A DNA stretch of 64,000 bases from Pseudomonadota bacterium (GTDB lineage Bacteria > Bdellovibrionota > FAC87 > UBA2466): NCBI GenBank assembly GCA_009927165.1, contig RFNO01000053.1, forward strand, positions 16,143 to 80,142, given 5' to 3'. The notes below the pieces were generated by a model. The model saw only the letters and a list, made by a program, of their open reading frames with translations, ran no database searches and was not told the DNA's origin. A program made the position numbers and the translations under genes. Shown here in pieces: positions 1-62,725 of this stretch (position 1 is the first letter of the stretch; the number at the start of each line of letters is the position of its first letter).

Positions 1-1613
1 AAGTACCGCAACCCCTCAACGAGCCTGTTCTTTCTTATCGACCTGGCTCTGCTGAATCACTGGCTATCAAAAAAGAACTCGATCGCCAATTGGGTGAAAA
101 AGTTGATATTCCGGCCATCATCAATGGTAAAGAAATTCGAACGGGGAAGACTGAGAAATGTATTGTTCCCCATCAGCATAAACATAGTCTGGGACAATAC
201 CATCAAGTGGGTCCTGAGGAAGTAAGAGCTGCTATTAATGGTGCGCTCGCAGCTTGGAAAGACTGGTCGCAGATGTCTGCTCCTTCTCGCCAGGCCATTT
301 TTTTGAAAGCAGCTGAGCTTCTCACGCACAAATATCGATATGTTTTAAATGCTGCCACCATGTTGGGCCAGAGCAAAACTTGCTATCAAGCAGAAATCGA
401 CTCTGCTTGTGAATTTATTGATTTCTTAAGGTTCAATTCGTATTTTCAGGAACAGATTTATGGTATCCAGCCTCTATCTAGCGCTTCTGTTTGGAATCGC
501 ATGGAATATCGCCCGTTAGAGGGATTTGTTTTTTCGGTAACACCATTTAACTTTACTTCTATCGCTGGAAATTTACCTAGTTCTGCTGCTTTGATGGGCA
601 ATGTCTCTCTCTGGAAACCTGCTTCGACAGCAGTTTATTCTGGTTATTTCATCATGAAACTTCTTGAGGAGGCTGGCCTTCCTCCGGGCGTCATTCAATT
701 TATTCCGGGCAGTGGTTCTCTTGTGGGGGATCTTGTTCTGAAGGATAAAAATTTGGGCGGTATTCATTTCACTGGAAGTACGGGCGTCTTTCAAAATATG
801 TGGAAGCTAGTGGGTGAAAATATTCATCACTATCGAAGTTATCCCAGAATAGTAGGTGAAACTGGGGGAAAAGACTTCGTTTTTGCTCATGTGTCTTGTG
901 ATCGAAAAGCGCTTGTAACCGCTTTAGTAAGAGGAGCATTTGAGTATCAAGGTCAGAAATGTTCAGCAGCTTCTAGAGCATACATTCCTAAAAGTATCTG
1001 GCCACAAGTGCGGGAAGAACTAATCGCAGAACTGAAAACGGTGAAAATGGGGGACGTTTTAGATTTCAGAAATTTCATGTCTGCAGTCATCGATAAAAAG
1101 TCCTTTGATAATATCAGTCGGTACGTAGAGGGGGCTAAAAATAGTTCAGATTGCAAGATTGTCTCTGGGGGTAAAGGCAACGCTGAAGTTGGCTACTTTT
1201 ACGAGCCCACAGTCGTGGAAACAACTAATCCGCGTTATCAGACTCTTTGTGAGGAAATTTTTGGGCCCGTACTGACTGTCTATCCTTATGAGGATGACCA
1301 GTTTGAAGAAACCCTCAAGCTCTGTGATGAAACTTCTCCTTATGCATTAACGGGAGCTTTGTTTGCTCAAGACAGAGCCGTTATTGAAAGAGCGTCTCAA
1401 GTGCTTACTCATAGTGCCGGTAATTACTACATCAATAACAAACCTACGGGGGCAGTGGTTGGGCAGCAGCCCTTTGGGGGAGGCCGTGGTTCTGGGACAA
1501 ATGACAAAGCCGGAAGCATTTACAATCTTCTCAGGTGGGCATCTGTCAGAACCGTTTCGGAGACATTTAATCCACCAAGCGGTTATGGTTATCCGTTTAT
1601 GGAGGGAAAATAA
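1..1613 (+). CDS. 1-pyrroline-5-carboxylate dehydrogenase (aldehyde dehydrogenase family), 5'-partial; the reading frame is open to the window start (in-frame translation from nt 3 gives VPQPLNEPVLSYRPGSAESLAIKKELDRQLGEK...)
   Basis: N-terminal NEP...L.Y.PGS motif typical of RocA/PruA-type P5CDH. ALDH-family body with NPxxxxGxxxGGKD-like segment (VGETGGKDF) and catalytic-Cys region. Stop at 1611-1613. Confidence 0.75.
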   Translation, partial: VPQPLNEPVLSYRPGSAESLAIKKELDRQLGEKVDIPAIINGKEIRTGKTEKCIVPHQHKHSLGQYHQVGPEEVRAAINGALAAWKDWSQMSAPSRQAIFLKAAELLTHKYRYVLNAATMLGQSKTCYQAEIDSACEFIDFLRFNSYFQEQIYGIQPLSSASVWNRMEYRPLEGFVFSVTPFNFTSIAGNLPSSAALMGNVSLWKPASTAVYSGYFIMKLLEEAGLPPGVIQFIPGSGSLVGDLVLKDKNLGGIHFTGSTGVFQNMWKLVGENIHHYRSYPRIVGETGGKDFVFAHVSCDRKALVTALVRGAFEYQGQKCSAASRAYIPKSIWPQVREELIAELKTVKMGDVLDFRNFMSAVIDKKSFDNISRYVEGAKNSSDCKIVSGGKGNAEVGYFYEPTVVETTNPRYQTLCEEIFGPVLTVYPYEDDQFEETLKLCDETSPYALTGALFAQDRAVIERASQVLTHSAGNYYINNKPTGAVVGQQPFGGGRGSGTNDKAGSIYNLLRWASVRTVSETFNPPSGYGYPFMEGK

Positions 1614-1614
1614 A

Positions 1615-3372
1615 ATGAAGCGACTCGCCACTTTATCACTTATAATTTTGCTAGCAGGATGTTCCTCTGTGAATCGGCGGAATCTCGATAATGAGATTGC
1701 AGAGAAATCAATGGCTCCTTCTTGTCTGGCCATTAAAAATTTTTTTAAAACTGAGTTAAATGAATTTCAGGAGAGGATCGACAAAGCATCTGCCGATTAC
1801 CAAGAAGAGCAATGGAAAGTGGAGGCAAATGAAGGGGGGGCCTCACCAGAGAAAATGGGAACTCTCTTTGGTGTTTATCAGTCGGTCGCCTATGATAAGA
1901 CCGTCCTTCAAAAAACAATCGATCATTGGAAACAAGCAGAACAAATTGATGGGGCCGATTGTGTTTGGAAGAAGAAATTGGGCCGAGCTAAGCAGGTCCT
2001 TGAAACTAGTATTCTCACTCAGGAATCAGTCATAAAAAAAGAGAAAGAGAATCAGGAGAAACAAGATGCTCTTTCCAATCAGAGTAACGGATTTAGAATT
2101 CAAGTCCCTGGGGAAGCAGAGCCCATTTCAAAGGCGCTTCTTTCAAAAAGAATCGGGAGTACTCCCGACCGAACTGTCCGCGAAGCTCTCTTTAAACAAT
2201 TCAACTCAAGTCGAGCTAATGCTTGGTTAAAGTGGGGCTTTAAAGGACTTGTAAAGTCACGTAACGACGAAGCTAGACTGGCAGGTTTTAAAAATTATTA
2301 TGATTATAGATTTTTCAGAAATCAGCTCGACCTGAAAAATTACTTAGATAACGTTAAAGAAATTAAAACTAAGCTGGCACCCAAAGTACGAACGCTAATC
2401 AAAAGTATGGGTAGGCAATTTGGGATTTCCAAAGTGGAAGCTTGGGATCTTAGATATTTAAGAGAAAAGTCGGCCTCTGGAGAAGTGAACGATCTTCTCA
2501 AAGACTTCCCAGAAACCGAAGTTATGAAAATAGCAAAAGACTTCTACGCTAGCCTCGGAATTGATGTTGATTCCTATGGGTTTAAAATGGATTTATTTCC
2601 CCGTCCCGGAAAAAATACTCACGCATTCGCCATGGGCGTAGTGGCTCCCCATGCGAATGAGAAGGGAGAGGTGTTAGCTTCCCCTAGACCTGATATTCGG
2701 TTTTTAGCCAACTTAAAAAAGCCAGTTCAATGGGACGATATCAGCACCATTATTCATGAATTGGGACATGCTATTCACTTTGGGGAAATTCGCCAACCAG
2801 TAGCTATTTTCCGAGGATTCGGATCTGTAGAAACCGAAGCTATTGCAATGACGTTGGAACGAATGGCTGATTCTGCTGAGTTTTTAGAAGATATTTTGCC
2901 CAAATATACTTCAGTCCCGACGGATACCCTAAAGCCCATTCTAAATAAACAGGATCGTGCTACGCGCATTGAACAAGCGTTTGTGCTCTTGAGACAAGTG
3001 ATGTTTAGTGAGTTTGAAAGAGCGGTCTATTTGAATCCAGATCAGGATTTCTATCGTCTTTGGGCAAAGATATTCAAAGAGTACTGGGGCATCTCGATAC
3101 CGCCCCAACATTCTGATTGGGATGTTGATCACTTTGTGATGGCCCCTGTTTATGTTCAAAACTATGCGATTGGAATTCTTATGGTTCAGCAGTTTTATGA
3201 ATCAATCATTAAGGAATTCAATACTGCGTACCGCTCAAAAGCTATCGGAGATAAACTGAAATTGAAGTATTTTGGTCCGGGCATGGAGTTTGATTATTTA
3301 GACTTAACTTTGCATTTTACTGGGAAAGCGCTATCGGCTCAATCTGCGCTCAAACTGTTGGAGGGCTTGTGA
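1615..3372 (+). CDS. Putative zinc metallopeptidase lipoprotein (HEXXH...E gluzincin, M3-like)
   Basis: ATG at 1615 preceded by GGAGGGAAAA. Lipoprotein signal MKRLATLSLIILLAGCSS. HELGHAIHF zinc-binding motif with a downstream Glu (VETEAIA). Confidence 0.55.
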   Translation: MKRLATLSLIILLAGCSSVNRRNLDNEIAEKSMAPSCLAIKNFFKTELNEFQERIDKASADYQEEQWKVEANEGGASPEKMGTLFGVYQSVAYDKTVLQKTIDHWKQAEQIDGADCVWKKKLGRAKQVLETSILTQESVIKKEKENQEKQDALSNQSNGFRIQVPGEAEPISKALLSKRIGSTPDRTVREALFKQFNSSRANAWLKWGFKGLVKSRNDEARLAGFKNYYDYRFFRNQLDLKNYLDNVKEIKTKLAPKVRTLIKSMGRQFGISKVEAWDLRYLREKSASGEVNDLLKDFPETEVMKIAKDFYASLGIDVDSYGFKMDLFPRPGKNTHAFAMGVVAPHANEKGEVLASPRPDIRFLANLKKPVQWDDISTIIHELGHAIHFGEIRQPVAIFRGFGSVETEAIAMTLERMADSAEFLEDILPKYTSVPTDTLKPILNKQDRATRIEQAFVLLRQVMFSEFERAVYLNPDQDFYRLWAKIFKEYWGISIPPQHSDWDVDHFVMAPVYVQNYAIGILMVQQFYESIIKEFNTAYRSKAIGDKLKLKYFGPGMEFDYLDLTLHFTGKALSAQSALKLLEGL

Positions 3373-3953
3373 GCGAGGGGTACGTTAAGCAATCATTATT
3401 AGAAGCTCAGAGTCTTCTTTCCGCTTTTTTGGAAAGTAACGAACTCCTTAAAAAGGCCGATCAATTGGTTCTGGAATTAGTGGAGCTCTATCGTAGGGGA
3501 GGGAACTTATTTATTTGTGGAAATGGAGGTTCTCATTGCGATGCTATGCATTTTGCCGAAGAGTTCACTGGTCGATTCCGAAAAGATCGCCGACCCCTGG
3601 GAGCATTAGCCTTAGGTGATCCGTCTCATGTTACTTGTGTATCAAATGACATGGGTTTTGATCAGGTGTTTTCAAGGCAGCTTGAAGGGTTGGGCAGAAA
3701 AGGAGACCTGCTTGTCGCTTTAACCACGAGTGGAAATTCTCGTAATATCGCTTTGGCGATTGAAAAGGCAAAACAGAAAGAAATCCGCACTGTAGTTCTT
3801 TCTGGCAAGGACGGAGGGAAAATGAAGGGTTTGGCCAATTTGGAGTTGATTATTCCTGGAAAAACCTCTGACCGAATTCAAGAAATGCACATCAAGCTGA
3901 TTCATTCCGCCATTGAGGCCGTTGAAAGACAGTTGTTTCCGGAGAATTACTAA
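3369..3953 (+). CDS. gmhA: SIS-domain phosphoheptose isomerase (GmhA/DiaA family)
   Basis: GNGGSHCDAMHFAEEFTGRF and TTSGNSRNI motifs. About 194 aa. GTG start overlapping the upstream stop. Confidence 0.7.
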   Translation: MSEGYVKQSLLEAQSLLSAFLESNELLKKADQLVLELVELYRRGGNLFICGNGGSHCDAMHFAEEFTGRFRKDRRPLGALALGDPSHVTCVSNDMGFDQVFSRQLEGLGRKGDLLVALTTSGNSRNIALAIEKAKQKEIRTVVLSGKDGGKMKGLANLELIIPGKTSDRIQEMHIKLIHSAIEAVERQLFPENY

Positions 3954-3957
3954 GAGC

Positions 3958-4962
3958 TTATTCTGTTAATAAATTAAAGTCAGGGTAGTGCTGAGCCACA
4001 TATTTTTTGAGTTTTTCTTTAACTTGTTCTTCAAGTTGTCGTGCCCGTTCTTTAGATACTTTGTATTTATTTCCGATTTCTTGAAGTGTGAGTGGATTTT
4101 CTGAAATAAGTCGATTTTGAAAAATAATTTTTTCTCGTCCTTCGAGTGTTTGCCCAAATTGGTTCAGGATAGTTTTGAAAAGCTCAGCCTGCTCTTCGTC
4201 ACCCAACCGTTGGTCTACTGGGGCTCCAGGATCTGCAATGTTTTGGATGTGTTCCTTCCTCTCATCATCCCCAACTTGCGCGTTCAAGGAAATATCCGGT
4301 CCCGATAATCGTTGTGACATTTCCTCCACTTCTTTTTCTTTTACGTCTAATTTGCTTGCCAGTAGTTTTACGTTTTGGCCTGGTGCCATCCCCATGTCCT
4401 CTAGTTTTTTCTGTTCTTTTTTCAGTTGATAAAACAGCTTTTTTTGGGCTTGAGTAGTCCCCATTTTTACCAGAGAAAAATTTTTGAGAATTGCTTCTTG
4501 AATGTAGCTTCTAATCCACCAAACTGCATAAGTGGTAAGACGCACTTCTTTAAAGGGATTGAAATCTTGAACTGCCCTGATGAGACCAGTGTTTCCTTCT
4601 TGAATCAAGTCCATTAAGCGAATGCGATAATGGTGGTATTCATAAGCAATTTTCACGACAAATCTCAGGTTGGAAGTAACCAACTTTTGTAACGTTTCTC
4701 GATCTCGAGTTTGATAGTATTTCATGGCCAATTCGTGCTCTTCCTCTTTAGTAAGGAGGGGATACCTGGAAATCTCTCTGAAATAAGTGGCTAGGAGTGG
4801 GTCAGAGGGAGCAATGGAAGTGGACCCTTTAGGTTTTTTAACGGCAAGAGCTCCCGTACTTTTCTTGCTTTTTGGAACAAGCGTCTTGTTCCCACTATTT
4901 TTGGGTGGTTTTCCCGATTCCATTTGTCTGATACTGATATCAAAGGTGTCACAGGGTGGCAA
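3958..4962 (-). CDS. rpoH: RNA polymerase sigma-32 (RpoH-like sigma-70 family factor) with a basic N-terminal extension; alternative start at Met14 (~4923)
   Basis: Regions 2-4 of the sigma-70 family. RpoH-box-like QAQKKLFYQLKK. LLTKEEEHELA region 2. Confidence 0.7.
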   Translation of the reverse strand: MPPCDTFDISIRQMESGKPPKNSGNKTLVPKSKKSTGALAVKKPKGSTSIAPSDPLLATYFREISRYPLLTKEEEHELAMKYYQTRDRETLQKLVTSNLRFVVKIAYEYHHYRIRLMDLIQEGNTGLIRAVQDFNPFKEVRLTTYAVWWIRSYIQEAILKNFSLVKMGTTQAQKKLFYQLKKEQKKLEDMGMAPGQNVKLLASKLDVKEKEVEEMSQRLSGPDISLNAQVGDDERKEHIQNIADPGAPVDQRLGDEEQAELFKTILNQFGQTLEGREKIIFQNRLISENPLTLQEIGNKYKVSKERARQLEEQVKEKLKKYVAQHYPDFNLLTE

Positions 4963-22267: not shown

Positions 22268-22280
22268 TTTGCGGTCTTCT

Positions 22281-23087
22281 TTAATTCCTTTTTTCTTCTT
22301 TTTCTTTTTCTGATGATTCAATGAATTGGCGCATGAAATATTTTAAGATGCTGCTACGTTTGGCGCCTCCTAAAAGTGACTTCACATCCTCGTATACGGT
22401 GGGATCGTTTACTATTGAGCCCAGAGTTCCATCACCCGAATCGATCTTACTCAAAATTGAATCGAGGTGGGATAAAGCCTTATTCAAATTTTGGCCGCTT
22501 GTTCCATAAAATAGCTCATTGAGAAGGCTCTTTTCTTTTCTTATTTGACCGGACAATTGAACTAAGTTGTCTGATAATCTTGCCAGATTTTTAATGGTCG
22601 AATCAACATCTCCCCCTTCTCTCAAATAGCGCGCAATACCTTCCATCAGATTACCGCTTTTTGAAAATAGGTCAGGAGTGTCTTGGGTACGTATCGTATC
22701 GCCATTTTTTAGTTCCGCTTGTCCATTTGTTCCAATAGCAAGCTCAATATAGCGATCCCCCAGAACCCCTTGAGTCTTTAAAGTGGCAGTTGAATCTTCT
22801 CTGAGGCGACCACGCGCTACCGATGAAATCTGTAGCTCGGCGATCATATCCTTTGAATCGTCCTTGGAAACCGAAATTTCCTTTACTATTCCCACCCTCA
22901 GCCCCGAAAGTGAAACTTCAGAACCTGGATGTAAACCCTTTACATCTTTGAAACGAGCATAAAGTGTGAAAGTGGAGTGTAAAAAACCAGTCCCGCTCCC
23001 CATCACAAAAATGAGATAAGTGGCGATAAGAAGTCCCAGCACAACGAAAGTACCAACGAAAACCTGATTAATCTTTCTACGTTCCAT
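22281..23087 (-). CDS. mlaD: MCE-domain protein MlaD (phospholipid ABC transport substrate-binding component)
   Basis: N-terminal TM anchor plus MCE domain. Downstream of mlaE-mlaF. Confidence 0.7.
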   Translation of the reverse strand: MERRKINQVFVGTFVVLGLLIATYLIFVMGSGTGFLHSTFTLYARFKDVKGLHPGSEVSLSGLRVGIVKEISVSKDDSKDMIAELQISSVARGRLREDSTATLKTQGVLGDRYIELAIGTNGQAELKNGDTIRTQDTPDLFSKSGNLMEGIARYLREGGDVDSTIKNLARLSDNLVQLSGQIRKEKSLLNELFYGTSGQNLNKALSHLDSILSKIDSGDGTLGSIVNDPTVYEDVKSLLGGAKRSSILKYFMRQFIESSEKEKEEKRN

Positions 23088-31731: not shown

Positions 31732-32750
31732 AGGAAATGAGAAACGGTCAATTAACTGGGATTGAGAAAATCGCAGTGCTAATGAATGTCATTGGCAAAG
31801 AAAAGTCTGGTGAGCTGTTGAAGCAAATGAAAGACTCAGATGTTCGCCGACTGCTGAAAGTGATGAGCAGCATGAAGAAGGCACCCGTGCAGCTTATCAA
31901 TGATGTACTTAAAGAGTACCTTTATAAATTAAGTGAAAAAGATGAAATTATTTTCGAAGAAAACCTTTCTGAACCAGAATTGATAAGTCAGGTTCTTGGC
32001 TCAGAACGCGCAAAGCAAATTTTCGGAGGCAACAGAGCGGTCAATCTGGTTGAGCGAAAGAGTCTGACCGTTTTGGAAACGGTAGATCCAAAGACTCTTG
32101 CAGAGTTTCTTGTGGATGAGCATCCTCAAACAATTGCATTAATTATCGCCCACATGGATGTGGAACAACAAATCACCATGATTAAAGCTCTTCCCGATAA
32201 TCTCAGGCCAGAAATTGTCACTCGAATGGCTACCCTTGAATATGTATCTCCTGAGAAAATTGACGAATTAGACGAAGTTCTTAAAAGAGATCTCATTGGC
32301 AAGGCAGTAGGAAACAAGAATCAATTTGGCGGAGTGCCAGCTATTGCGGATCTCATTAATAATCTCGATAAAAGAACAATGACTTCTTTAATGACTCGCC
32401 TTGAAGATAAAGATCCAATACTGGCTGTAGAGATAAAGCAACATATCTTTAGTTTTACGGATGTTATTAAGATCGATAATCGAGGCCTCCAATTGGTCCT
32501 TAGGGACGTTCCAAATCAAACTCTGCTTTTGGCCCTGAAAAATGCGCCTGAAGAACTAAGAGAAAAGCTTTATGAAGCAATGTCTGAGCGGGCAGCAGCC
32601 ATGTTGAAAGATGACTTAGCAGCGTTAGGTCCACAGCGAGTATCAGACGTTGAAAAGGCTCAGAAAGAAATTGTGACTGTAGTCAAACGACTAGAAAAAG
32701 AAGGGAAAATTATCATTGGCGTGGGTGAAGAGTCAGATATGGTCCCCTGA
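31728..32750 (+). CDS. fliG: Flagellar motor switch protein FliG
   Basis: LTGIEKIAVLMNVIGKEKSGELLKQM start and conserved FliG middle and C domains. Confidence 0.85.
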   Translation: MKEMRNGQLTGIEKIAVLMNVIGKEKSGELLKQMKDSDVRRLLKVMSSMKKAPVQLINDVLKEYLYKLSEKDEIIFEENLSEPELISQVLGSERAKQIFGGNRAVNLVERKSLTVLETVDPKTLAEFLVDEHPQTIALIIAHMDVEQQITMIKALPDNLRPEIVTRMATLEYVSPEKIDELDEVLKRDLIGKAVGNKNQFGGVPAIADLINNLDKRTMTSLMTRLEDKDPILAVEIKQHIFSFTDVIKIDNRGLQLVLRDVPNQTLLLALKNAPEELREKLYEAMSERAAAMLKDDLAALGPQRVSDVEKAQKEIVTVVKRLEKEGKIIIGVGEESDMVP

Positions 32751-33573
32751 CCAAATAAGGGAACAAGGGGAGTTTGTTCGTTTTCGGGCAGCCGATGTGC
32801 GCACTTTGCCTCAGTTTTCGGAGGCTGTAGCTCAGAAGGCTTCTGCTTGGAGCGGTGAAGTGTCCCAATCAACTGGCGAACATTTTCGTATGGCTGGCGA
32901 GTATTGGGATGGCCTCATGAATGATCCCATGTTCCGAGAGCGTTTTGATGCTTTGGTCGAGAAAGAAGTAAGGTCTCGCCTGTTGAAACGTTTGGAACAT
33001 CATGAAACTGAAGTTTTACCTGAAATTTCAAAAGAAGCCATGAAGCAAGGATATCAAGAGGGAAAAAATTTAGCCCATGAGCAGCTCGAGGAAGAAATCA
33101 ATAAGATCGAACAAAATCTGACTTATACTTGGCAGGAAAAAGTTGGCGAACTAGAGAAAAGCAAAACTGAAGCCTCCGCGCTATTAGATTCTCTTGTTGC
33201 TGAATGGAAAAATCAGCGTGAATCCCTTTTGCACAGCCATGAGCGCGAATGGTGCCAAGCTATGTTGCATCTCATGAAAAGATTCCAGATGGAAAAGAGT
33301 GAGAGTTATGGAAAAGCTCTTGAAATTTGGATGGCTGAAGCGATACCGGAATTTGTAACCAAGAGCCCTGTCACTGTTTGTGTGCCGGACTATGAATGGG
33401 AAAAATACGCCGATTGTCTTGGAAAAAAAGAAAGTGAAGGAAAATGGCATCTGGTGCGAGACTCAAAATTAATGCCTGGACAAATTCGATTTGAAGCTGG
33501 GGCCGGCGGGGCGATTTTCGATTCCGGAAATAATTACCAAAAATTAGTGGATTGGTTGGAAACAATCAGATGA
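32716..33573 (+). CDS. fliH: Flagellar assembly/export protein FliH (start uncertain)
   Basis: Position between fliG and fliI. Coiled-coil. C-terminal ...GGAIFDSGNNYQKLVDWLE resembles the FliH/ATP-synthase-b-like C-domain. Confidence 0.55.
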   Translation: MAWVKSQIWSPDQIREQGEFVRFRAADVRTLPQFSEAVAQKASAWSGEVSQSTGEHFRMAGEYWDGLMNDPMFRERFDALVEKEVRSRLLKRLEHHETEVLPEISKEAMKQGYQEGKNLAHEQLEEEINKIEQNLTYTWQEKVGELEKSKTEASALLDSLVAEWKNQRESLLHSHEREWCQAMLHLMKRFQMEKSESYGKALEIWMAEAIPEFVTKSPVTVCVPDYEWEKYADCLGKKESEGKWHLVRDSKLMPGQIRFEAGAGGAIFDSGNNYQKLVDWLETIR

Positions 33574-34870
33574 ATCTAGAACAATTCTGCAAACAAATCC
33601 GAGATGAGTCGTTTGTAACATTTTGTGGACGTGTGACGAAAGTTAGAAGAGATTCGGTTCGGGTCTTCGTACCTAACGCAAAAGTGGGCTCGGTGGTTAT
33701 GGTTCAGGGGAGACAGAAAGAAATTCCGTTAGAAATCGTTAGTTTAGATCCAGAAGGTCATGTCGCAATGCCTTTGGATGAATTAAACAGTGTTCAGTTA
33801 GGTGACCTCGTTACACTTCGCGAAGAACAAGCAGTTATCCCCGTTGGAAAGGAACTGCTTGGCCAAGTCGTTGATTCACTCTGTAGGCCACTTGAGACAA
33901 ATAGGAAGCTCAATTTACCAGATTCCATTTCGCTTTATGGTGAATACTTAAACCCAATGGATCGAACGATTATTCGGGAACCTATCGACTTGGGCGTGAG
34001 GACAATAAACGCCCTTCTTACTTGTGGTCTTGGCCAAAGAGCAGGAATTTTCGCTGGTTCAGGAGTGGGTAAAAGTGTTCTGTTAGGGATGATGGCTAGA
34101 TTTACTTCTGCAGATGTTGTGGTTGTGGGACTTATCGGAGAACGAGGCAAAGAGGTACGAGAGTTTATAGAGCACGAGTTGGGAGAAGAAGGCAGAAAAA
34201 AAAGTGTGACTGTCGTCGAAACAGCTGAGAAATCTCCCGTCAGGCGTGTCCGTGGAGCATATGTTAGTACTGCTATAGCGGAATATTTTCGAAAACAAGG
34301 TCTACAAGTGTTGCTCTTAATGGATTCTCTTACTCGCTTTGCGATGGCACAGCGAGAAATCGGTATGGCGGCGGGCGAGCCACCCACCAGTAAAGGTTAT
34401 ACGCCTAGTGTATTTTCGGGAATTTCCCGACTGGTTGAGCGTGCGGGAAATTTCGGGGCCGAAGGCAGCATCACTGGTCTTTATACAGTTTTGGTTGAGG
34501 GAGATGACTTAGAGGATCCGGTTGCAGACAGTGCCGGTCAATCTTGGACGGCCACTTGGTATTATCCCGAAAAATAGCAAACAAAGGACAATATCCAGCA
34601 ATCGATATCTTGCAGAGTGTGAGCCGAGTAATGGATCAAGTTACCGAAAAGACTCACTCCACATCGGCACGAAGGGTAAAGCAAATCTTAGCTCGCTTTC
34701 AGGATAACGAAGATGCAATTAACTTAGGTCTCTATAATAGAGGGAGTGACCAGACAATTGACGAAGCGATTGAGAAAGAACCTATTATCCTCGATTTCCT
34801 CAAACAAGGAAGAGACGAGCACTCATCATTTTTTGATTCGAAAAGTAAACTCTTGGAAATTGCTAGATGA
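33552..34870 (+). CDS. fliI: Flagellum-specific ATPase FliI, interrupted by a -1 frameshift near 34533-34537 (reading frame continues in ORF 34544..34870); possible pseudogene or sequencing error
   Basis: Walker A GSGVGKS and Walker B LLLMDSLTRFA in the first ORF. The FliI C-terminus DGHLVLSRKIANKGQYPAIDILQSVSR is in the next frame. A single missing C in gcc(c)gg would restore ...VADSARSILDGH... Confidence 0.8.
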
Positions 34871-35301
34871 GATTTAAATTCCGGCTCGAAAAAATTGCGA
34901 ATTATTTTACGCAGAAGGAATTTGCAAAAAAAATTGAGTTAGCAAAAGTGTTGAGAGATTTGGCTCAGAGCAAAAGCCTAAAAGAATCAATTGAAAGAGA
35001 AAACCTAGGGTTGTTAAAAAACCAAAGCCAAAAATCACAAGTAGGAGTCGAGTGGTTAAAGCTCTTCATGGATCGTATCGACCACAACATCATTTCACTT
35101 GAGAAATTAAAAGTTGTGATTGGAGAACAGCAAACAGTGGTTGATCTAAAAAGAAAAGAGCTCAACATTCTGAGCGCTAAAAAGAAAGCTCTCGAAACCA
35201 TGCGCGATAAAAAGATGGCGGAATTCAAAGTGATTGCAAATCGAAACGCACAGAAGAAGTTGGACGAAAGCTTTGAGCTATTAAAGACAGAAAAAAAATG
35301 A
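34867..35301 (+). CDS. fliJ: Flagellar export protein FliJ
   Basis: MRFKFRLEKI... N-terminus typical of FliJ. All-coiled-coil, ~144 aa, directly after fliI. Confidence 0.6.
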   Translation: MRFKFRLEKIANYFTQKEFAKKIELAKVLRDLAQSKSLKESIERENLGLLKNQSQKSQVGVEWLKLFMDRIDHNIISLEKLKVVIGEQQTVVDLKRKELNILSAKKKALETMRDKKMAEFKVIANRNAQKKLDESFELLKTEKK

Positions 35302-35915
35302 ACAGACTTTTTACATTTATCCTATTATGTTTCGCTGGATTACTTCCCGCTCATCTCAGTGCAGATGTATCAAAAGTGGAAGAAATCGGGAATCAGAAAA
35401 AACTTCTCGAACAGAGAGAGCAGGAACTCAATGCTCGGGAGGCGACACTAAAGGAGCAGATTGCAAGCCATGTTCGCGTCATACAGGACCTTCAGGAAAG
35501 ATTTAGCAAGGACAAGCGCGCCATGGAGGAGAAGCTGAATCAGCGAGAAGTTGAGTTGAATAAAAAGCTGATCGAAAAAGAGCAGGAGCTCAAAAAAAAG
35601 ACGATTGAACTTGAGAGTGTACGAGACCATCGCGCCAAAAGTTATCGACTGATCTACGAAAAAATGGAGCCAAAAAATGCGGCAAAGATTCTGGAGGATA
35701 TCGATGCTTCACTTGCATTGCAGATTTTAGCCGACATGAGGGAACAAAAGGCCGCTGAAATTTTATCTAAAATGAACCCAGAGAAGGCGAGAAGTATTAC
35801 TGAGTACGGGTTTGGAAAAAGACAGTTGGCCTCGCCAGCTGGAGGCAACCAAAAGATTTCTCAAAAGGTCAATGAAGTAAACGAGAAGAGTCCGATAGCT
35901 CCCATCGGAGAGTAG
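35298..35915 (+). CDS. Flagellar protein with MgtE_N-like domain (FlbB/MotE/YlxF-like)
   Basis: Signal peptide, coiled coil, then PKNAAKILEDIDASLALQILADMREQKAAEILSKMNPEKARSI (MgtE N-terminal-like). Same position as ylxF/flbB in Firmicute and spirochaete fla operons. Confidence 0.55.
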   Translation: MNRLFTFILLCFAGLLPAHLSADVSKVEEIGNQKKLLEQREQELNAREATLKEQIASHVRVIQDLQERFSKDKRAMEEKLNQREVELNKKLIEKEQELKKKTIELESVRDHRAKSYRLIYEKMEPKNAAKILEDIDASLALQILADMREQKAAEILSKMNPEKARSITEYGFGKRQLASPAGGNQKISQKVNEVNEKSPIAPIGE

Positions 35916-35945
35916 TCCAAAAATCAAAGAAAGGAGGTAAAAACA

Positions 35946-37244
35946 ATGCTACATAATATTTATTCAAGCAGTCTTAATCTGTCTGCTTTGTCCGTTATGG
36001 GTGGTGAAAGTCTGGGCTTGCCTGAGACAGGAGAATTCGATTTTTTGAATTATCTTTTGGGCCTTCAGGTAACGAGTTCGGAAAGCTCAACTGAATTAGA
36101 TGGATTGATGTCTGGATTGAACGCTAAGAATGGTCAGGAGTCTAAGCTTGATTCTAATGAAGCCCTTTTGGAACTTTTTGATCGAAAGGCTTCAAGAGAT
36201 TCGTCGGTGCTTATTGGGCAACCGATGATGGGACCGGTTCAGCCTCAAGTTGCTCCCTTAACTGTTCAAACAGTTCAAAAAATGGAATCTGCTGAAAGCA
36301 CAATGGGCCGTCTTGATGACAAGATTCCCGTTATTAAATCTTATAAAGAAGATAAACAGCAGGTTTTGGGTCAAAATGTACTTGAAGATCCTATCGGTCA
36401 GCTTGCCTTCAACAAGGCGATGTATGATCAGAACCGGAGCTCAGTAAATAGCGGTCCAAGATCCAAGGACGCCGATCCACAGGTTGTGTTCGACCAAAAG
36501 GAAAGAATGATTCAATCCTATATGGGCTCGAAAAAACAACCAGAGGCTAATGCCGATAGTCCAGAGTTAGCCATGGGAAAAGTGACGATTAACGAGACTC
36601 GGTTCGACAATGAAGAAGCAGACACCATCGACGGCCCTAAGCGACAAACTCATCGATCAGAAGAGTTTGATGTCGTTTCTGATACATCGGCACCTATGCT
36701 ACAAAATAACGTAGTTACGGTGAACTCGAAGGTCACAGGGCTGGAGAAAGTGAGCCATCATACGGTTCCTGAGCTCTTCCAAAAAGTCGAATCAATGGTC
36801 CATCACGGCGGAGGAAAACTGACGGTTACTTTGACACCACCCGATTTGGGACAGGTCGAGATACACGTCAGTACCAAAGGCAAGAATGTTGAGGTTTCTG
36901 TGAAATCAGATAACGATTTTGCAAAAGCCGCCATTGAAAGCCAAGTCGCTGATCTCCAGCAGTCTTTGCAGAATCAGGATCTTAATTTGAGTAAAATTGA
37001 GGTCCACGTCAGCAGAGAAATGGAGCCATCATTTTTAGAAAATCAATATGCTCAGTTTTCTGGAAATGGAAGTCTGTACCAGCAGTCACAAAGCTCGCGT
37101 CAGGATTCAGCAAAGAATCCCTGGCAAGTGAATCACCTGGATAGTTCTCATCCACGGAATCGGATGACTACCACATCAGCTGTTTCGACAGCTGCTTTGC
37201 ATGGGGTTAACCAAGGAACTGGACGAGTTGATATCCGCATCTAG
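35946..37244 (+). CDS. fliK: Flagellar hook-length control protein FliK
   Basis: Low-complexity N-terminal region and conserved C-terminal Flg_hook domain (GGGKLTVTLTPPDLGQVEIHVS...). Confidence 0.7.
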   Translation: MLHNIYSSSLNLSALSVMGGESLGLPETGEFDFLNYLLGLQVTSSESSTELDGLMSGLNAKNGQESKLDSNEALLELFDRKASRDSSVLIGQPMMGPVQPQVAPLTVQTVQKMESAESTMGRLDDKIPVIKSYKEDKQQVLGQNVLEDPIGQLAFNKAMYDQNRSSVNSGPRSKDADPQVVFDQKERMIQSYMGSKKQPEANADSPELAMGKVTINETRFDNEEADTIDGPKRQTHRSEEFDVVSDTSAPMLQNNVVTVNSKVTGLEKVSHHTVPELFQKVESMVHHGGGKLTVTLTPPDLGQVEIHVSTKGKNVEVSVKSDNDFAKAAIESQVADLQQSLQNQDLNLSKIEVHVSREMEPSFLENQYAQFSGNGSLYQQSQSSRQDSAKNPWQVNHLDSSHPRNRMTTTSAVSTAALHGVNQGTGRVDIRI

Positions 37245-37253
37245 AGAGAAACC

Positions 37254-38213
37254 ATGAACGAATTATCTGCTGCTTTGCCAAGTAAGCTCACCGAGATGCC
37301 TGCGGAAAGATCTAAACCCAAGAACACTTTGGGTAAGGATGATTTTCTCAAGCTTCTCATGGCGCAGCTGAATAATCAGGATCCCCTTAAGCCAATGGAA
37401 CACCAGGAGTTCTCAGCTCAATTGGCACAATTCGGATCCTTGGAGCAGTTACAAAATATCCACAAGGGGATTGAGAATCTTCAAGGGGGTATGGGTAACG
37501 AGTCCAAGCTTTCGGCAATTGGCATGATTGGAAAGCAAGTTCATGCCAATGGTAACGAGGTGAATCTGGTTGAAGGTCAGGCCATTAATCTTACTTTTTC
37601 AAAAAAGGAGGGGATTAATCCTGTGCAAGCACAGATCTATTCGGAATCTGGAAAAGTGGTACGTGAACTGGATATCGATCCAAGAACTAAAAATGGTGAA
37701 ATTAGCTGGGATGGAAAAGATCAAGAAGGAAAAGCACTCCCGTCAGGAAAATACACGTTTAGAGTGCAAGGAGTTGGCTCATCGGGCCAAGCCGAAGAGC
37801 TGGGAGCAGAGCTCTCTGGACGTGTGACGGCAGTTGAAATGAACGGGAATAATCCCGTGCTTGTAGTTCAAACTGCCTCGGGAACTTCCAAACTTGAACT
37901 TAATAAAGTTAATACAGTTACTCAGGATTCAGGTTCGAACTCCAAAGAAAGTTTGAGCCCGAAGCTTGATAAAAGTAAAGCAAGTGAAGCTAAAACCATT
38001 GCTAACAATCTGAAGGGGCTTTCTTCAGCGGAAAACACAAATGAATCGGAAGGAACCACCGCAGTGAAATCGGCAAGTAACAGCATACCTGTTGATATTT
38101 CTGAGGTGGTTAATGTCGATTCGAGTGAAAATGAAAGTGAAGAAGGAATTCCTTGGGAAGACCAGTGGCGAGGCTTTCCTGCTTTTGCTTCTCCAAAGGA
38201 TCTCAGACCATGA
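37254..38213 (+). CDS. flgD: Flagellar hook capping/assembly protein FlgD, with a long Ser/Glu-rich C-terminal extension
   Basis: KDDFLKLLMAQLNNQDPLKPMEHQEF FlgD N-motif and the hook-cap domain. 319 aa versus the typical 140-230. Confidence 0.8.
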   Translation: MNELSAALPSKLTEMPAERSKPKNTLGKDDFLKLLMAQLNNQDPLKPMEHQEFSAQLAQFGSLEQLQNIHKGIENLQGGMGNESKLSAIGMIGKQVHANGNEVNLVEGQAINLTFSKKEGINPVQAQIYSESGKVVRELDIDPRTKNGEISWDGKDQEGKALPSGKYTFRVQGVGSSGQAEELGAELSGRVTAVEMNGNNPVLVVQTASGTSKLELNKVNTVTQDSGSNSKESLSPKLDKSKASEAKTIANNLKGLSSAENTNESEGTTAVKSASNSIPVDISEVVNVDSSENESEEGIPWEDQWRGFPAFASPKDLRP

Positions 38214-38608
38214 GCATTCAAGATCTCTATAGAGCTGGGAATTTTTCGATAAATCCTTCTGGAGTAGGTTCGATTGGTGATCGACCGTCAATCGGTAGCA
38301 CCAAAGCTCCTACCAATCCGGATGAGTTTCAAAAGGTTCTTCGACAAGAAGAAGGAAAAATCAGCATGTCGCAACATGCGGAAACACGCATTCGTTCTCG
38401 TGAAATTCCGTGGAGTGCGGCAATGGAAAAACGGGTAATGGGTGGCATCGAAGCTCTTGAAGCCAAGGGCAGCCGAGAAGCGCTGATTCTCGCTGATGAT
38501 GTCGCTTTTATTGCCAATATCCGGTCGAAAACCATTGTAACGGCGATGGATCGAACGCAACTAAAAGAACGAGTTTTCACAAATATTGATAGCGCCGTTC
38601 TAGTCTAG
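38210..38608 (+). CDS. Small conserved-position flagellar operon protein of unknown function (between flgD and flgE)
   Basis: ATG overlapping the flgD stop (ATGA). 132 aa, no TM. Possibly related to the 'flagellar operon protein' family found between flgD and flgE in Firmicutes; not verifiable here. Confidence 0.4.
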   Translation: MSIQDLYRAGNFSINPSGVGSIGDRPSIGSTKAPTNPDEFQKVLRQEEGKISMSQHAETRIRSREIPWSAAMEKRVMGGIEALEAKGSREALILADDVAFIANIRSKTIVTAMDRTQLKERVFTNIDSAVLV

Positions 38609-41516: not shown

Positions 41517-43169
41517 TTAATTTGGGTTCTGTTGTTGTATTAATTCTTGGTAGGTCTGGGCTGCTGGGGCTGCATTGCCAGCCTTTGTCCCAAATTCTTC
41601 CATGAGATGTTCAGGAACTTTATTGATTTCTAGAATGCTGGTCTCTCCAATAGCAATCTTCTTCTTTTGAATAGCTGCTTCATCAAATTTATAATTGGGA
41701 ACCGATTTTTGTACTTCCTTCATTTTTTCAATGGCCCGGTCAAGAGCTTGATTGTAAGCATTTAATTGTTCAGCATTGGTCATTTCTGTCAAAACATCAT
41801 TCCCTTCTTCATCTCCAACTGTTATTTGATTTTTAAATTCGGCATCATCATACTTCCAATTAGTTTGAAGATTGTTAAGGTCAACTCCTGTTTTATCCAT
41901 TACTTGAAGCTGGTTTCGCATATCCCGCGTCTTATCATCTTCTCGGTCGGGCCCATTTTCTTTGATGGTTTTTGCTTGTTGTGCATTGCCGTTTGATAAA
42001 TTGGAATTCTGCTCCTGAAATCGTGGATCAACAGCACTCCATTTTACCTGACTCATTTTTTGGCAGTCTTGAACCTGTTGTTGAAGCTGATTTTGATAAT
42101 CTTGTTTTTTGTTGGCATCGGACACTTTTGCAATTTCCGCGCTGACCGATTGTCCCCAGGCCTCACAAGTCGGTGTTTCTTCTGATAAGCTCGGAGCGAT
42201 AAACTCAATTTCACCATTTATTTCATAAGGTTTCTTTTCAACGGTTCTATTTATGCGACGTTGAGATAAATTTGCAAGAGTCGAGTCCCACAAGGCTCTG
42301 GTCGCTCGAGCGGCTGCTTCATAGTAGAATGTTAGGTTGCCCATTGCTTGAGGATCATCTTCAGAGCCTGGGCTTTTAGCAGCTTTGATAATAGTTTTAG
42401 AAGAAATATCTCCTACTTCCTCAATCGCTTGTTCTACATCGGGTCTGAGACTCGTGCGTTCTACTTTATCGGGTTCCTTTTGATTATTAGATGAATTGGA
42501 GGGATTCGAGTTCGCCGAATCCTTTTTTTCCGATGCTGTTGGGTTTTTAAAGACTTCTCTTGTTTCTACTTTAAAAACAGAGCGGTACTTTATTCCTTTT
42601 TCCTGGTCGGTTTTTTGTTGTTGTTTGGGATCCTCATCTTGTTTGGAATATTGCGTATGTTTCTCATAGGTAACTCTTTCTAGAAGAGAAGAACCCCCGC
42701 CTTCAGAAATGCCACCGTGAGCTGATATAAATCCATAAAGAGTTCGTGTCTGGGCCTTAGGATCCTTAGGATTATTTTTTTTAGCTTGTCCATCTGCCGT
42801 ATTATAAGAAAAATCGTGGAAAGTGAGGTCGCTCTCATAGGAAAGTCCATCGTCCAAGTTAAATCGTCGTTTAGAACCCTGAATTACTTTTCCTGAAGGA
42901 TCTTTGGCTTTTCCCATTACGTTTTTATCTTGGGTAAATTTAATAAAGCGGTCGATGTAAGCTTTTCGAGCTTTTTCAGCTAAGGCATCCACATCTTGAA
43001 TCTCGGAAGAGTCTTCGGCCAATACTAAAACAGGCAGTAAGGAGAGCCATAAGAGCCCTTTAAGCCATTGCTTACCTGGTGGTTGAAACCGTTTCACGAT
43101 AGACCCCTCTACGAAATAAAGTAGCAATTGAGATGCCGAAAAAAAGAGCGAAAAACTCAATGATTTCAT
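41517..43169 (-). CDS. Large secreted low-complexity (Gln/Asn/Lys/Asp-rich) hypothetical protein
   Basis: N-terminal hydrophobic signal-like segment(s). 550 aa with polar low-complexity stretches. No catalytic motif recognised. Confidence 0.4.
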   Translation of the reverse strand: MKSLSFSLFFSASQLLLYFVEGSIVKRFQPPGKQWLKGLLWLSLLPVLVLAEDSSEIQDVDALAEKARKAYIDRFIKFTQDKNVMGKAKDPSGKVIQGSKRRFNLDDGLSYESDLTFHDFSYNTADGQAKKNNPKDPKAQTRTLYGFISAHGGISEGGGSSLLERVTYEKHTQYSKQDEDPKQQQKTDQEKGIKYRSVFKVETREVFKNPTASEKKDSANSNPSNSSNNQKEPDKVERTSLRPDVEQAIEEVGDISSKTIIKAAKSPGSEDDPQAMGNLTFYYEAAARATRALWDSTLANLSQRRINRTVEKKPYEINGEIEFIAPSLSEETPTCEAWGQSVSAEIAKVSDANKKQDYQNQLQQQVQDCQKMSQVKWSAVDPRFQEQNSNLSNGNAQQAKTIKENGPDREDDKTRDMRNQLQVMDKTGVDLNNLQTNWKYDDAEFKNQITVGDEEGNDVLTEMTNAEQLNAYNQALDRAIEKMKEVQKSVPNYKFDEAAIQKKKIAIGETSILEINKVPEHLMEEFGTKAGNAAPAAQTYQELIQQQNPN

Positions 43170-62383: not shown

Positions 62384-62725
62384 ATGAAAAAGTTTTCAAT
62401 TTATTTGGCCGGATTGTTACTGATAGCGGCTTGTGGCAGTGATAACAATTCGCAGCCTAACCAGAATCAGCCTTATCAAAACCAGCCGTACCAGAACCAG
62501 CCTTATGGGCAAAATCCCTACGGTGGCAACGGGCAAAACCCGTATGGTGGTTATGGACAAAACCCGTATGGTGGTTATGGACAGAATCCTTATGGTGGTT
62601 ATGGACAGAATCCTTATGGTGGTTATGGACAGAATCCTTATGGTGGTTATGGTTACAATCGCCCGGGTTACGGACAGAATCCTTACGGTGGTTATGGTGG
62701 ATATAACCGACCTTACGGTTATTAA
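62384..62725 (+). CDS. Tyr/Gly/Pro/Gln-rich tandem-repeat lipoprotein ((G)QNPYGGY x ~8)
   Basis: Lipobox LIAACGS, then QNQPY x3 and GQNPYGGY repeats encoded by near-perfect 24-nt tandem DNA repeats. Confidence 0.6.
   Translation: MKKFSIYLAGLLLIAACGSDNNSQPNQNQPYQNQPYQNQPYGQNPYGGNGQNPYGGYGQNPYGGYGQNPYGGYGQNPYGGYGQNPYGGYGYNRPGYGQNPYGGYGGYNRPYGY
62507..62700 (+). repeat. Tandem 24-nt coding repeat array (ggacagaatccttatggtggttat and variants, about 7 copies), preceded by 15-nt QNQPY repeats
   Basis: Directly visible near-identical tandem units within the lipoprotein CDS. Confidence 0.8.

What the first reader, a model, noticed from the sequence alone, without database searches (positions are those of the whole stretch)
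33552..34870. fliI (flagellar export ATPase) split by a single-nucleotide frameshift
The Walker A/B half (33552-34577) and the conserved C-terminal half (34544-34870, ...DGHLVLSRKIANKGQYPAIDILQSVSR) are in different frames. The junction is at a gcc-gg run (about 34533-34537). Inserting one C gives the expected VADSARSILDGH. FliI is normally essential for flagellar export, so this is either a sequencing or assembly indel in a short homopolymer, a genuine inactivating mutation in a non-motile lineage, or (less likely) a programmed frameshift.
Basis: seen in the sequence. Interest (0 to 1): 0.6.

Follow-up and report, generated by a model that had tools for sequence, protein, structure and literature searches.

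The report
Likely assembly-made frameshift in fliI
The flagellar export ATPase gene fliI really is split by one missing base in this sequence, but twelve near-identical assemblies of the same freshwater Bdellovibrio-like bacterium have the gene intact, and the missing base sits exactly on a strain-variable position, so it is most likely an assembly error and not biology.

Summary
fliI runs in one frame from 33570 to 34534 and continues in the -1 frame from 34535 to 34870. Adding one base between 34534 and 34535 gives a 433-aa FliI that is 100% identical to an intact protein from an NCBI MAG.

Comparison with 40 contig pieces from independent metagenome assemblies of the same population (99.8-100% nt identity, 63,751 of 64,000 nt covered) shows:
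- All 12 contigs that span the junction carry six bases (GCNCGG) where the window has five (GCCGG).
- The missing base is the synonymous third position of Ala322. This is the only site found with three alleles among the other assemblies in non-repetitive sequence (C, G and A).
- The window has only one other private indel, a 1-nt deletion at 22288-22293 at the 3' end of an mlaD-like gene. It also falls on a synonymous SNP.
- There is no slippery heptamer, no stable downstream structure, and no relative with the same frameshift.

Best explanation: a consensus or assembly artefact at strain-variable sites (about 0.7). The rival is a genuine, very recent fliI-null variant (about 0.25). Programmed recoding is effectively excluded. 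Only raw reads can settle it. Interest is low.

The parts
33570..34534 (+). fliI, 5' part (codons 1-322 minus the last base of Ala322), frame A. It holds the N-terminal beta-barrel region and the Walker A and Walker B motifs of the ATPase domain.
   Evidence: ORF list. TIGR01026 profile positions 5-329. Relatives call the gene from this ATG as 433 aa. Collinear with Salmonella FliI 2DPY/5B0O.
34533..34537 (+). Frameshift junction GC^CGG. One base is missing between 34534 and 34535. All other assemblies read GCC/GCG/GCA CGG (Ala322 Arg323).
   Evidence: blastn and regex comparison with 12 independent contigs. The site has three alleles in the population.
34535..34870 (+). fliI, 3' part (codons 323-433 plus the TGA stop), frame B (-1). 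It holds RSILDGH, the SVSR motif (Arg finger by homology with F1 alpha and EscN; my knowledge) and the C-terminal helical domain. Its stop overlaps the fliJ start (ATGA).
   Evidence: Translation. TIGR01026 profile positions 328-439. Identical to P0001. The ATGA overlap is read directly.
34575..34577 (+). Premature TAG reached in frame A, 13 aberrant codons after the shift (...ADSAGQSWTATWYYPEK*).
32716..33573 (+). fliH-position gene upstream of fliI (282-285 aa in relatives, no Pfam hit). Its stop overlaps the fliI start region. It is intact and has no indels against relatives.
34867..35301 (+). fliJ (PF02050), intact. Exactly the same protein is found on 8 other contigs.
22288..22293 (-). 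The window's second private 1-nt deletion (T6, against T7 or TTTTTCT in 5 of 5 other assemblies), at the 3' end of the mlaD-like gene 22281..23087. It changes the C-terminus from ...[11 protein letters not shown] to ...EEKRN*. The missing base coincides with a synonymous GAA/GAG SNP.

Best explanation
The split is a one-base deletion that exists only in this assembly. It is most likely a consensus or assembly artefact made where co-existing strains of one population differ. The organism is an uncultured freshwater member of the Bdellovibrio group and carries an ordinary, intact, selectively maintained fliI within a normal fliE-fliF-fliG-fliH-fliI-fliJ-fliK-flgD-flgE cluster. At Ala322 the population carries three synonymous alleles (GCC, GCG, GCA). 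In the window that variable base was dropped, giving GC-CGG and throwing the last 111 codons into the -1 frame. The same thing happened once more in the window, at a synonymous GAA/GAG SNP inside a T-run at the end of mlaD.

Shown: the deletion, its absence from all other assemblies, its position on a variable site, the second case, and the lack of any recoding signal.

Inferred: that the assembler or polisher caused it. Its identity and the read data are unknown to me.
For: (1) An intact FliI 100% identical to the repaired protein exists (P0001, NCBI MAG GCA_010028985.1).
(2) 12 of 12 contigs that span the junction carry six bases, GCNCGG. They come from NCBI MAGs, ENA assemblies, Logan per-run assemblies and a JGI metagenome, and are 99.8-100% identical to the window. 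None has the deletion.
(3) The missing base is the variable base: C in 6 contigs, G in 4, A in 2. No other site outside the 24-nt tandem repeat near 62.6 kb shows more than one non-window allele among 87 SNP sites in 63,751 compared bases.
(4) Across the whole window there are only two indels where the window stands alone. The second (22288-22293) also falls on a SNP, T7 against TTTTTCT. With a SNP density of about 0.14%, and allowing for placement ambiguity in runs of 3 and 7 bases, the chance that both hit SNP sites by accident is about 4e-5 to 1e-4 (my arithmetic).
(5) The errors do not track homopolymer length. Of the window's 47 runs of 7 nt or more, only the T7 at 22288 differs from the other assemblies.
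(6) The window's four private substitutions are synonymous or conservative (V=V, A=A, S/T, A/S), as expected under purifying selection. Both private indels are frameshifts in coding sequence, an unnatural ratio for real mutations.
(7) fliI is under purifying selection in the population: 6 synonymous sites (including the junction site) and 2 conservative replacements (T396A, I406V), both downstream of the shift. The window's 3' part is base-for-base identical to the intact genes of its closest haplotype.
(8) Neither frameshifted product (FliI 335 aa, MlaD 268 aa) is on record in a collection of 153 billion gene positions, whereas neighbouring window proteins are found on 8 to 23 contigs.
(9) Background: many frameshift pseudogenes in public genomes are assembly artefacts (PMC11017572). 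Current long-read metagenome assemblers leave about 4 indels per 100 kb on a mock community (PMC13087279). This compares with 2 per 64 kb here.
Against: No reads are available, so the deletion allele cannot be shown to be unsupported. The window is a distinct haplotype with four private substitutions, so private real mutations are possible in principle. I could not identify the window's source, sequencing platform or assembler. Standard de Bruijn short-read assemblers do not obviously delete a base at a SNP bubble, so the exact artefact mechanism is unproven. A site with three substitution alleles could be a true mutational hot spot at which a real deletion is also more likely.
Confidence: 0.7

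Rival explanations
1. A genuine, very recent 1-nt deletion (CCC to CC) inactivated fliI in one strain of the population, giving a non-flagellated variant. The truncated product (322 native residues plus 13 aberrant ones) keeps Walker A and B but lacks the SVSR arginine-finger motif and the C-terminal domain. The early stop also uncouples fliJ, whose ATG overlaps the normal fliI stop.
For: The window is a distinct haplotype with private substitutions that look real. Real fliI frameshifts that give non-motile lineages are documented, for example Yersinia ruckeri biotype 2 in Tasmania (PMC5320707). The junction site shows repeated change in the population (three alleles), which is compatible with a mutational hot spot.
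Against: 0 of 12 other assemblies carry the deletion. There is no secondary decay: the 3' part is identical to intact genes, and no other window-private indel falls in any flagellar gene (fliE/F/G/H/J/K, flgD/E, motA/B, flbD). The coincidence with SNP sites for both private indels is unexplained by this model. A swimming predator in lake water should be strongly selected to keep its flagellum (inference). The product is not on record anywhere.
Confidence: 0.25
2. Programmed -1 ribosomal frameshifting, or transcriptional slippage, restores full-length FliI from the split gene.
For: Only that the two halves are intact and the required shift (-1) is the commonest programmed direction.
Against: There is no X_XXY_YYZ heptamer anywhere in the 34500-34577 overlap. 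At the homology-defined shift point the sequence is AGT GCC GGT, where a -1 slip of the alanine tRNA would re-pair with UGC (direct reading). The downstream 116 nt fold no better than shuffles (z = +0.38, 133 of 200 shuffles fold as well). A CC run is far too short for transcriptional slippage (established knowledge). All 12 near-identical relatives, and all more distant relatives found, encode FliI in one frame.
Confidence: 0.02
3. The two pieces work as a split ATPase made of two separately translated polypeptides.
For: None beyond the intactness of both reading frames.
Against: The candidate starts in frame B (TTG 34544, TTG 34556, TTG 34610, GTG 34619, ATG 34631) have no Shine-Dalgarno-like sequence in the 20 nt upstream. 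The break lies inside the conserved ATPase core (DPVADSA|RSILDGH), not at a domain boundary. No relative is split.
Confidence: 0.01

Closest known systems
Spurious frameshift 'pseudogenes' created by assembly or consensus errors in public genomes and MAGs (Cooley & Wright 2024, PMC11017572; frameshift and IDEEL-type error checks in long-read metagenome assembly, PMC13087279)
   Same: A single-base indel splits an otherwise perfectly conserved gene. It is absent from near-identical independent assemblies. The indel rate (2 per 64 kb) is in the range reported for metagenome assemblies.
   Different: Both indels here sit on strain-variable SNP positions and not in the longest homopolymers. The platform and assembler of this window are unknown, so the fit is by pattern and not by demonstration.
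Genuine fliI frameshift in non-motile Yersinia ruckeri biotype 2 (PMC5320707)
   Same: A one-base deletion in fliI gives two ORFs. The other flagellar genes are intact.
   Different: There the deletion was confirmed by read mapping, shared by four isolates, and linked to loss of flagella by electron microscopy. Here the deletion is seen in one assembly only, with no reads or phenotype, and 12 of 12 sister assemblies are intact.
Salmonella FliI (PDB 2DPY, 5B0O), the flagellar type III export ATPase
   Same: The repaired protein aligns collinearly (E = 4e-111) across the junction: DPVADSARSILDGHLVLSR against DPIADSARAILDGHIVLSR. Walker A, Walker B and the SVSR/SISR motif are conserved.
   Different: Nothing notable. 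The repaired protein is an ordinary FliI orthologue.

Membership tests
FliI/YscN flagellar and type III secretion export ATPase (NCBIfam TIGR01026) | Full-length match above the curated cut-off | tested here: met
   The repaired 433-aa protein scores 548.5 bits against a cut-off of 379.5. The two window pieces cover profile positions 5-329 and 328-439. The clade-specific equivalog models (FliI_clade1-3) fall below their cut-offs, so it is assigned at subfamily level only.
FliI/YscN flagellar and type III secretion export ATPase (NCBIfam TIGR01026) | Walker A (GxxGxGKS/T), Walker B and the SVSR arginine-finger motif | tested here: met
   GSGVGKS, LLLMDS and QSVSR are read directly in the translation and align to the same motifs of Salmonella FliI. 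The Arg-finger assignment rests on my knowledge of F1 alpha Arg373 and EscN Arg366.
FliI/YscN flagellar and type III secretion export ATPase (NCBIfam TIGR01026) | Flagellar gene context (fliH upstream, fliJ downstream) | tested here: met
   The order is FliE, FliF, FliG, an unannotated fliH-position gene, FliI, FliJ, an MgtE_N-like gene, FliK (Flg_hook), FlgD and FlgE, from Pfam hits on identical proteins in sister contigs.
Programmed -1 ribosomal frameshift site | Slippery heptamer X_XXY_YYZ at the shift point | tested here: not met
   There is none in 34500-34577.
Programmed -1 ribosomal frameshift site | Stable stimulatory structure 5-9 nt downstream | tested here: not met
   Minimum free energy is -21 kcal/mol against a shuffle mean of -22.2, z = +0.38. 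Pseudoknots were not searched explicitly.
Programmed -1 ribosomal frameshift site | Frameshift conserved in relatives | tested here: not met
   12 of 12 near-identical contigs, and the 80 loci of more distant genomes, encode FliI in one frame.
Genuine pseudogene in a non-motile lineage | The same lesion is seen in independent samples or assemblies of the lineage | tested here: not met
   0 of 12 contigs carry it. The exact truncated product is not on record.
Genuine pseudogene in a non-motile lineage | Further decay of the gene or of other flagellar genes | tested here: not met
   The 3' part is identical to the intact alleles. No other window-private indel falls in any flagellar gene.
Genuine pseudogene in a non-motile lineage | Read support for the deletion and a non-motile phenotype | not testable with these tools
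   No reads are available and the organism is uncultured.
Assembly or consensus artefact | The lesion is private to one assembly while independent assemblies of the same population are intact | tested here: met
Assembly or consensus artefact | The lesion is tied to a technical risk factor (a strain-variable site), and other such lesions occur in the same contig | tested here: met
   Both private indels (34534/34535 and 22288-22293) fall on SNP sites.
Assembly or consensus artefact | Reads contradict the consensus | not testable with these tools
   The source sample and reads of the window are not identified.

The most novel reading that the evidence does not exclude
The deletion is real. A sub-lineage of a free-living freshwater Bdellovibrio-like predator has just lost its flagellar export ATPase, at a nucleotide that shows four states (C, G, A, deleted) within a population only about 0.1% divergent. 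That would make it a local mutational hot spot producing non-flagellated variants.
Probability: 0.2. Interest if true: 0.35.

Novelty: not a real feature. Interest (0 to 1): 0.1.

Why it matters
As biology it matters little. The organism almost certainly has a normal fliI, and nothing suggests recoding. It matters as quality control: anyone annotating this contig would call fliI (and would mis-size mlaD) as a pseudogene and might infer a non-motile lifestyle for an uncultured predator. The case also shows a usable diagnostic. When a private indel in a metagenome contig coincides with a population SNP, suspect the consensus step first, before biology or homopolymer read error. If the deletion were real, it would be a snapshot of flagellar loss arising in a wild predatory population, which is of modest interest.

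Tried and rejected
(1) Programmed frameshifting. I scanned the overlap for slippery heptamers and found none. I folded 34525-34640 and it was no more stable than shuffles. I looked for the interruption in relatives and found none. Rejected.

(2) Split-gene expression. No ribosome-binding sequence lies before any frame-B start. Rejected.

(3) General low-quality or homopolymer-error assembly. I compared 63,751 nt with independent assemblies and found only two private indels. Of the 47 runs of 7 nt or more, only the T7 at 22288 differs in length from the other assemblies, so the assembly is otherwise clean. Rejected as the sole cause.

(4) Other apparent frame overlaps in the ORF list (90..1613 with 1363..3372; 37254..38213 with 38153..38608; 41517..43169). 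These are upstream ORF extensions, not frameshifts. Sister contigs call the same genes with later starts and show no indels there.

(5) Finding the window's own contig. I looked up the exact frameshifted products (FliI 335 aa, MlaD 268 aa) and neither is on record. A scan of JGI metagenome contigs with a pattern that accepts both alleles returned one contig, which is intact. The GTDB representative set holds nothing closer than 80-84% amino-acid identity. The source therefore remains unidentified.

(6) The apparently hypervariable patch at about 62.6 kb turned out to be copy-number variation of a 24-nt tandem repeat. It is unrelated to the finding.

Full report
**1. What is in the sequence**

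On the + strand an ORF runs from 33552 (TTG; the likely true start is the ATG at 33570) to a TAG at 34575-34577. A second ORF, in the -1 frame, is open from 34508 and ends at 34870.

The first ORF carries Walker A (GSGVGKS) and Walker B (LLLMDS). The second carries RSILDGHLVLSR...PAIDILQSVSR and the C-terminal domain. The NCBIfam FliI/YscN model (TIGR01026) matches the first over profile positions 5-329 and the second over 328-439, so they are two abutting halves of one gene.

Inserting one base between 34534 and 34535 gives a 433-aa protein with these properties:
- It scores 548.5 bits against a cut-off of 379.5.
- It aligns collinearly with Salmonella FliI (2DPY/5B0O, E = 4e-111) straight through the junction: DPVADSARSILDGH against DPIADSARAILDGH.
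- It is 100% identical to an intact database protein, P0001.

**2. Whose genome it is**

The nearest species-level genomes are uncultured freshwater Bdellovibrio-group MAGs (Bdellovibrio sp. ZAP7, Pseudobdellovibrionaceae, Lake Lanier and Baikal MAGs), at 66-84% FliI identity. All of them encode FliI in a single frame.

The window is 43% G+C. Around fliI lies a standard flagellar cluster: FliE, FliF, FliG, a fliH-position gene, FliI, FliJ, an MgtE_N-like gene, FliK, FlgD, FlgE, and further on FlbD, MotA and MotB.

**3. Comparison with the same population elsewhere**

Exact-protein look-ups of window genes returned 8 to 23 contigs per gene. They come from NCBI MAGs (GCA_010028985.1, GCA_010031065.1, GCA_010027645.1), ENA assemblies, Logan per-run assemblies and a JGI metagenome. 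I compared 40 such pieces with the window. They cover 63,751 of 64,000 nt at a mean depth of 4.7, with 99.8-100% identity outside one tandem-repeat gene near 62.6 kb, and 87 SNP sites.

Twelve contigs span the fliI junction, and all twelve have six bases, GCNCGG, where the window has GCCGG. A scan of JGI metagenome contigs with a pattern that accepts either allele found one contig, which is intact. The truncated product is not on record in a collection of 153 billion gene positions.

**4. The telling detail**

The missing base is the third position of the Ala322 codon. In the other assemblies that position is C (6 contigs), G (4) or A (2). No other site in non-repetitive sequence shows more than one non-window allele. 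The only others, 62575 and 62614, lie in the misaligned tandem repeat.

Across the whole window there are only two indels where the window stands alone against every other assembly. The second is at 22288-22293, at the 3' end of an mlaD-like gene on the minus strand. There the window has T6, four assemblies have T7, and the closest haplotype (ERZ28577356 scaffold_30) has TTTTTCT. This is again a synonymous third-position SNP (GAA/GAG). Losing it shortens the protein from 274 to 268 aa. That 268-aa product is also not on record.

With about 0.14% of sites polymorphic, and allowing for placement ambiguity within runs of 3 and 7 bases, two random deletions would both land on SNPs with a probability of about 4e-5 to 1e-4 (my arithmetic). 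The deletions are therefore causally tied to strain variation.

They are not tied to homopolymer length. The window has 47 runs of 7 nt or more, including eight of 8 nt. Only the T7 at the SNP differs from the other assemblies.

**5. Real mutation or artefact?**

Points in favour of a real mutation:
- The window is a distinct haplotype.
- It has four private substitutions (2272, 19400, 29549, 52227). All are synonymous or conservative, so they look genuine.

Points against a real mutation:
- Two coding frameshifts against four neutral substitutions is not what purifying selection leaves behind.
- fliI is clearly under selection in this population: 6 synonymous sites and 2 conservative replacements, both downstream of the shift.
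- The window's 3' part is base-identical to the intact genes of its nearest haplotype.
- No flagellar gene shows any other lesion.
- A real-mutation model does not explain why both indels sit on SNPs.

As written, the gene would be a null. The N-terminal product lacks the SVSR motif (the arginine finger, by homology with F1 alpha and EscN; my knowledge) and the C-terminal domain. No frame-B start has a ribosome-binding sequence. The early stop would also uncouple fliJ, whose ATG overlaps the normal fliI stop (ATGA; inference).

Published background fits an artefact. Many frameshift pseudogenes in public genomes are assembly errors (PMC11017572). Current long-read metagenome assemblers leave about 4 indels per 100 kb (PMC13087279), close to the 2 per 64 kb here. 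A documented genuine fliI frameshift (Yersinia ruckeri biotype 2, PMC5320707) shows what real evidence looks like: read support, several isolates, and loss of flagella. None of that is available here.

**6. Recoding**

- There is no X_XXY_YYZ heptamer in 34500-34577.
- The shift point AGT GCC GGT would need the alanine tRNA to re-pair on UGC (direct reading).
- The downstream RNA folds no better than shuffles (z = +0.38).
- CC is too short for transcriptional slippage (established knowledge).
- No relative shares the shift.

Programmed frameshifting is effectively excluded.

**7. Verdict**

The feature is real in the file but most probably not real in the organism.

| Explanation | Probability |
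|---|---|
| Consensus or assembly artefact at strain-variable positions | about 0.7 |
| Genuine, very recent fliI-null variant | about 0.25 |
| Recoding or split-gene expression | 0.03 or less |

The exact technical mechanism is inferred, because I could not identify the window's source, platform or assembler. Read mapping at 34500-34570 and 22270-22310 would decide. Interest is low. The practical lesson is to treat private indels that coincide with population SNPs in metagenome contigs as consensus errors until reads say otherwise.

Noticed in passing
window 22288-22293 (mlaD-like gene, minus strand ORF 22281..23087): A second 1-nt deletion private to the window: T6, against T7 or TTTTTCT in 5 of 5 other assemblies. 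It falls on a synonymous GAA/GAG SNP and shortens the protein from 274 to 268 aa (...[11 protein letters not shown] becomes ...EEKRN*).
   Followed up: yes
window 62384-62725 (+): A 113-aa Q/N/P/Y/G-rich small protein with a lipoprotein-like N-terminus (MKKFSIYLAGLLLIAACG). It contains a 24-nt tandem repeat encoding GQNPYGGY. Copy number differs between assemblies (L118 is two units shorter; L120 aligns poorly), which produced apparent multi-allelic SNPs and indels there.
   Followed up: partly
L081 (NCBI RGZT01000079.1) against window 33544-38561: This MAG contig is an inverted chimera relative to the window and to other assemblies. Positions 1-4171 match window 33544-37713 forward, and 4171-4800 match window 38561-37932 in reverse, truncating flgD to 170 aa. 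It is probably a misassembly in that MAG.
   Followed up: no
L083 (NCBI RHBJ01000092.1) against window 35863-36121: This MAG contig lacks 259 nt that span the end of the 205-aa MgtE_N-like gene and the start of fliK. Its gene calls there are 189 and 390 aa, against 205 and 432 aa elsewhere. It could be a misassembly or a real deletion.
   Followed up: no
window 33494-33575: Three NCBI MAG contigs of this population begin within about 50 nt of each other just upstream of fliI (at window 33494, 33501 and 33544), next to a common SNP at 33575. This suggests that strain variation fragments short-read assemblies at this point.
   Followed up: no
window 2272, 19400, 29549, 52227: At these sites the window differs from every other assembly. 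All four changes are synonymous or conservative (A/S, V=V, A=A, S/T). The window is therefore a distinct haplotype, closest to ERZ28577356 scaffold_30.
   Followed up: partly
window 34487-34934: Population SNPs cluster in the 3' third of fliI and the start of fliJ: 7 sites in about 450 nt, against about 1.4 per kb overall. This is partly because sampling depth is highest here (11-13 contigs).
   Followed up: no
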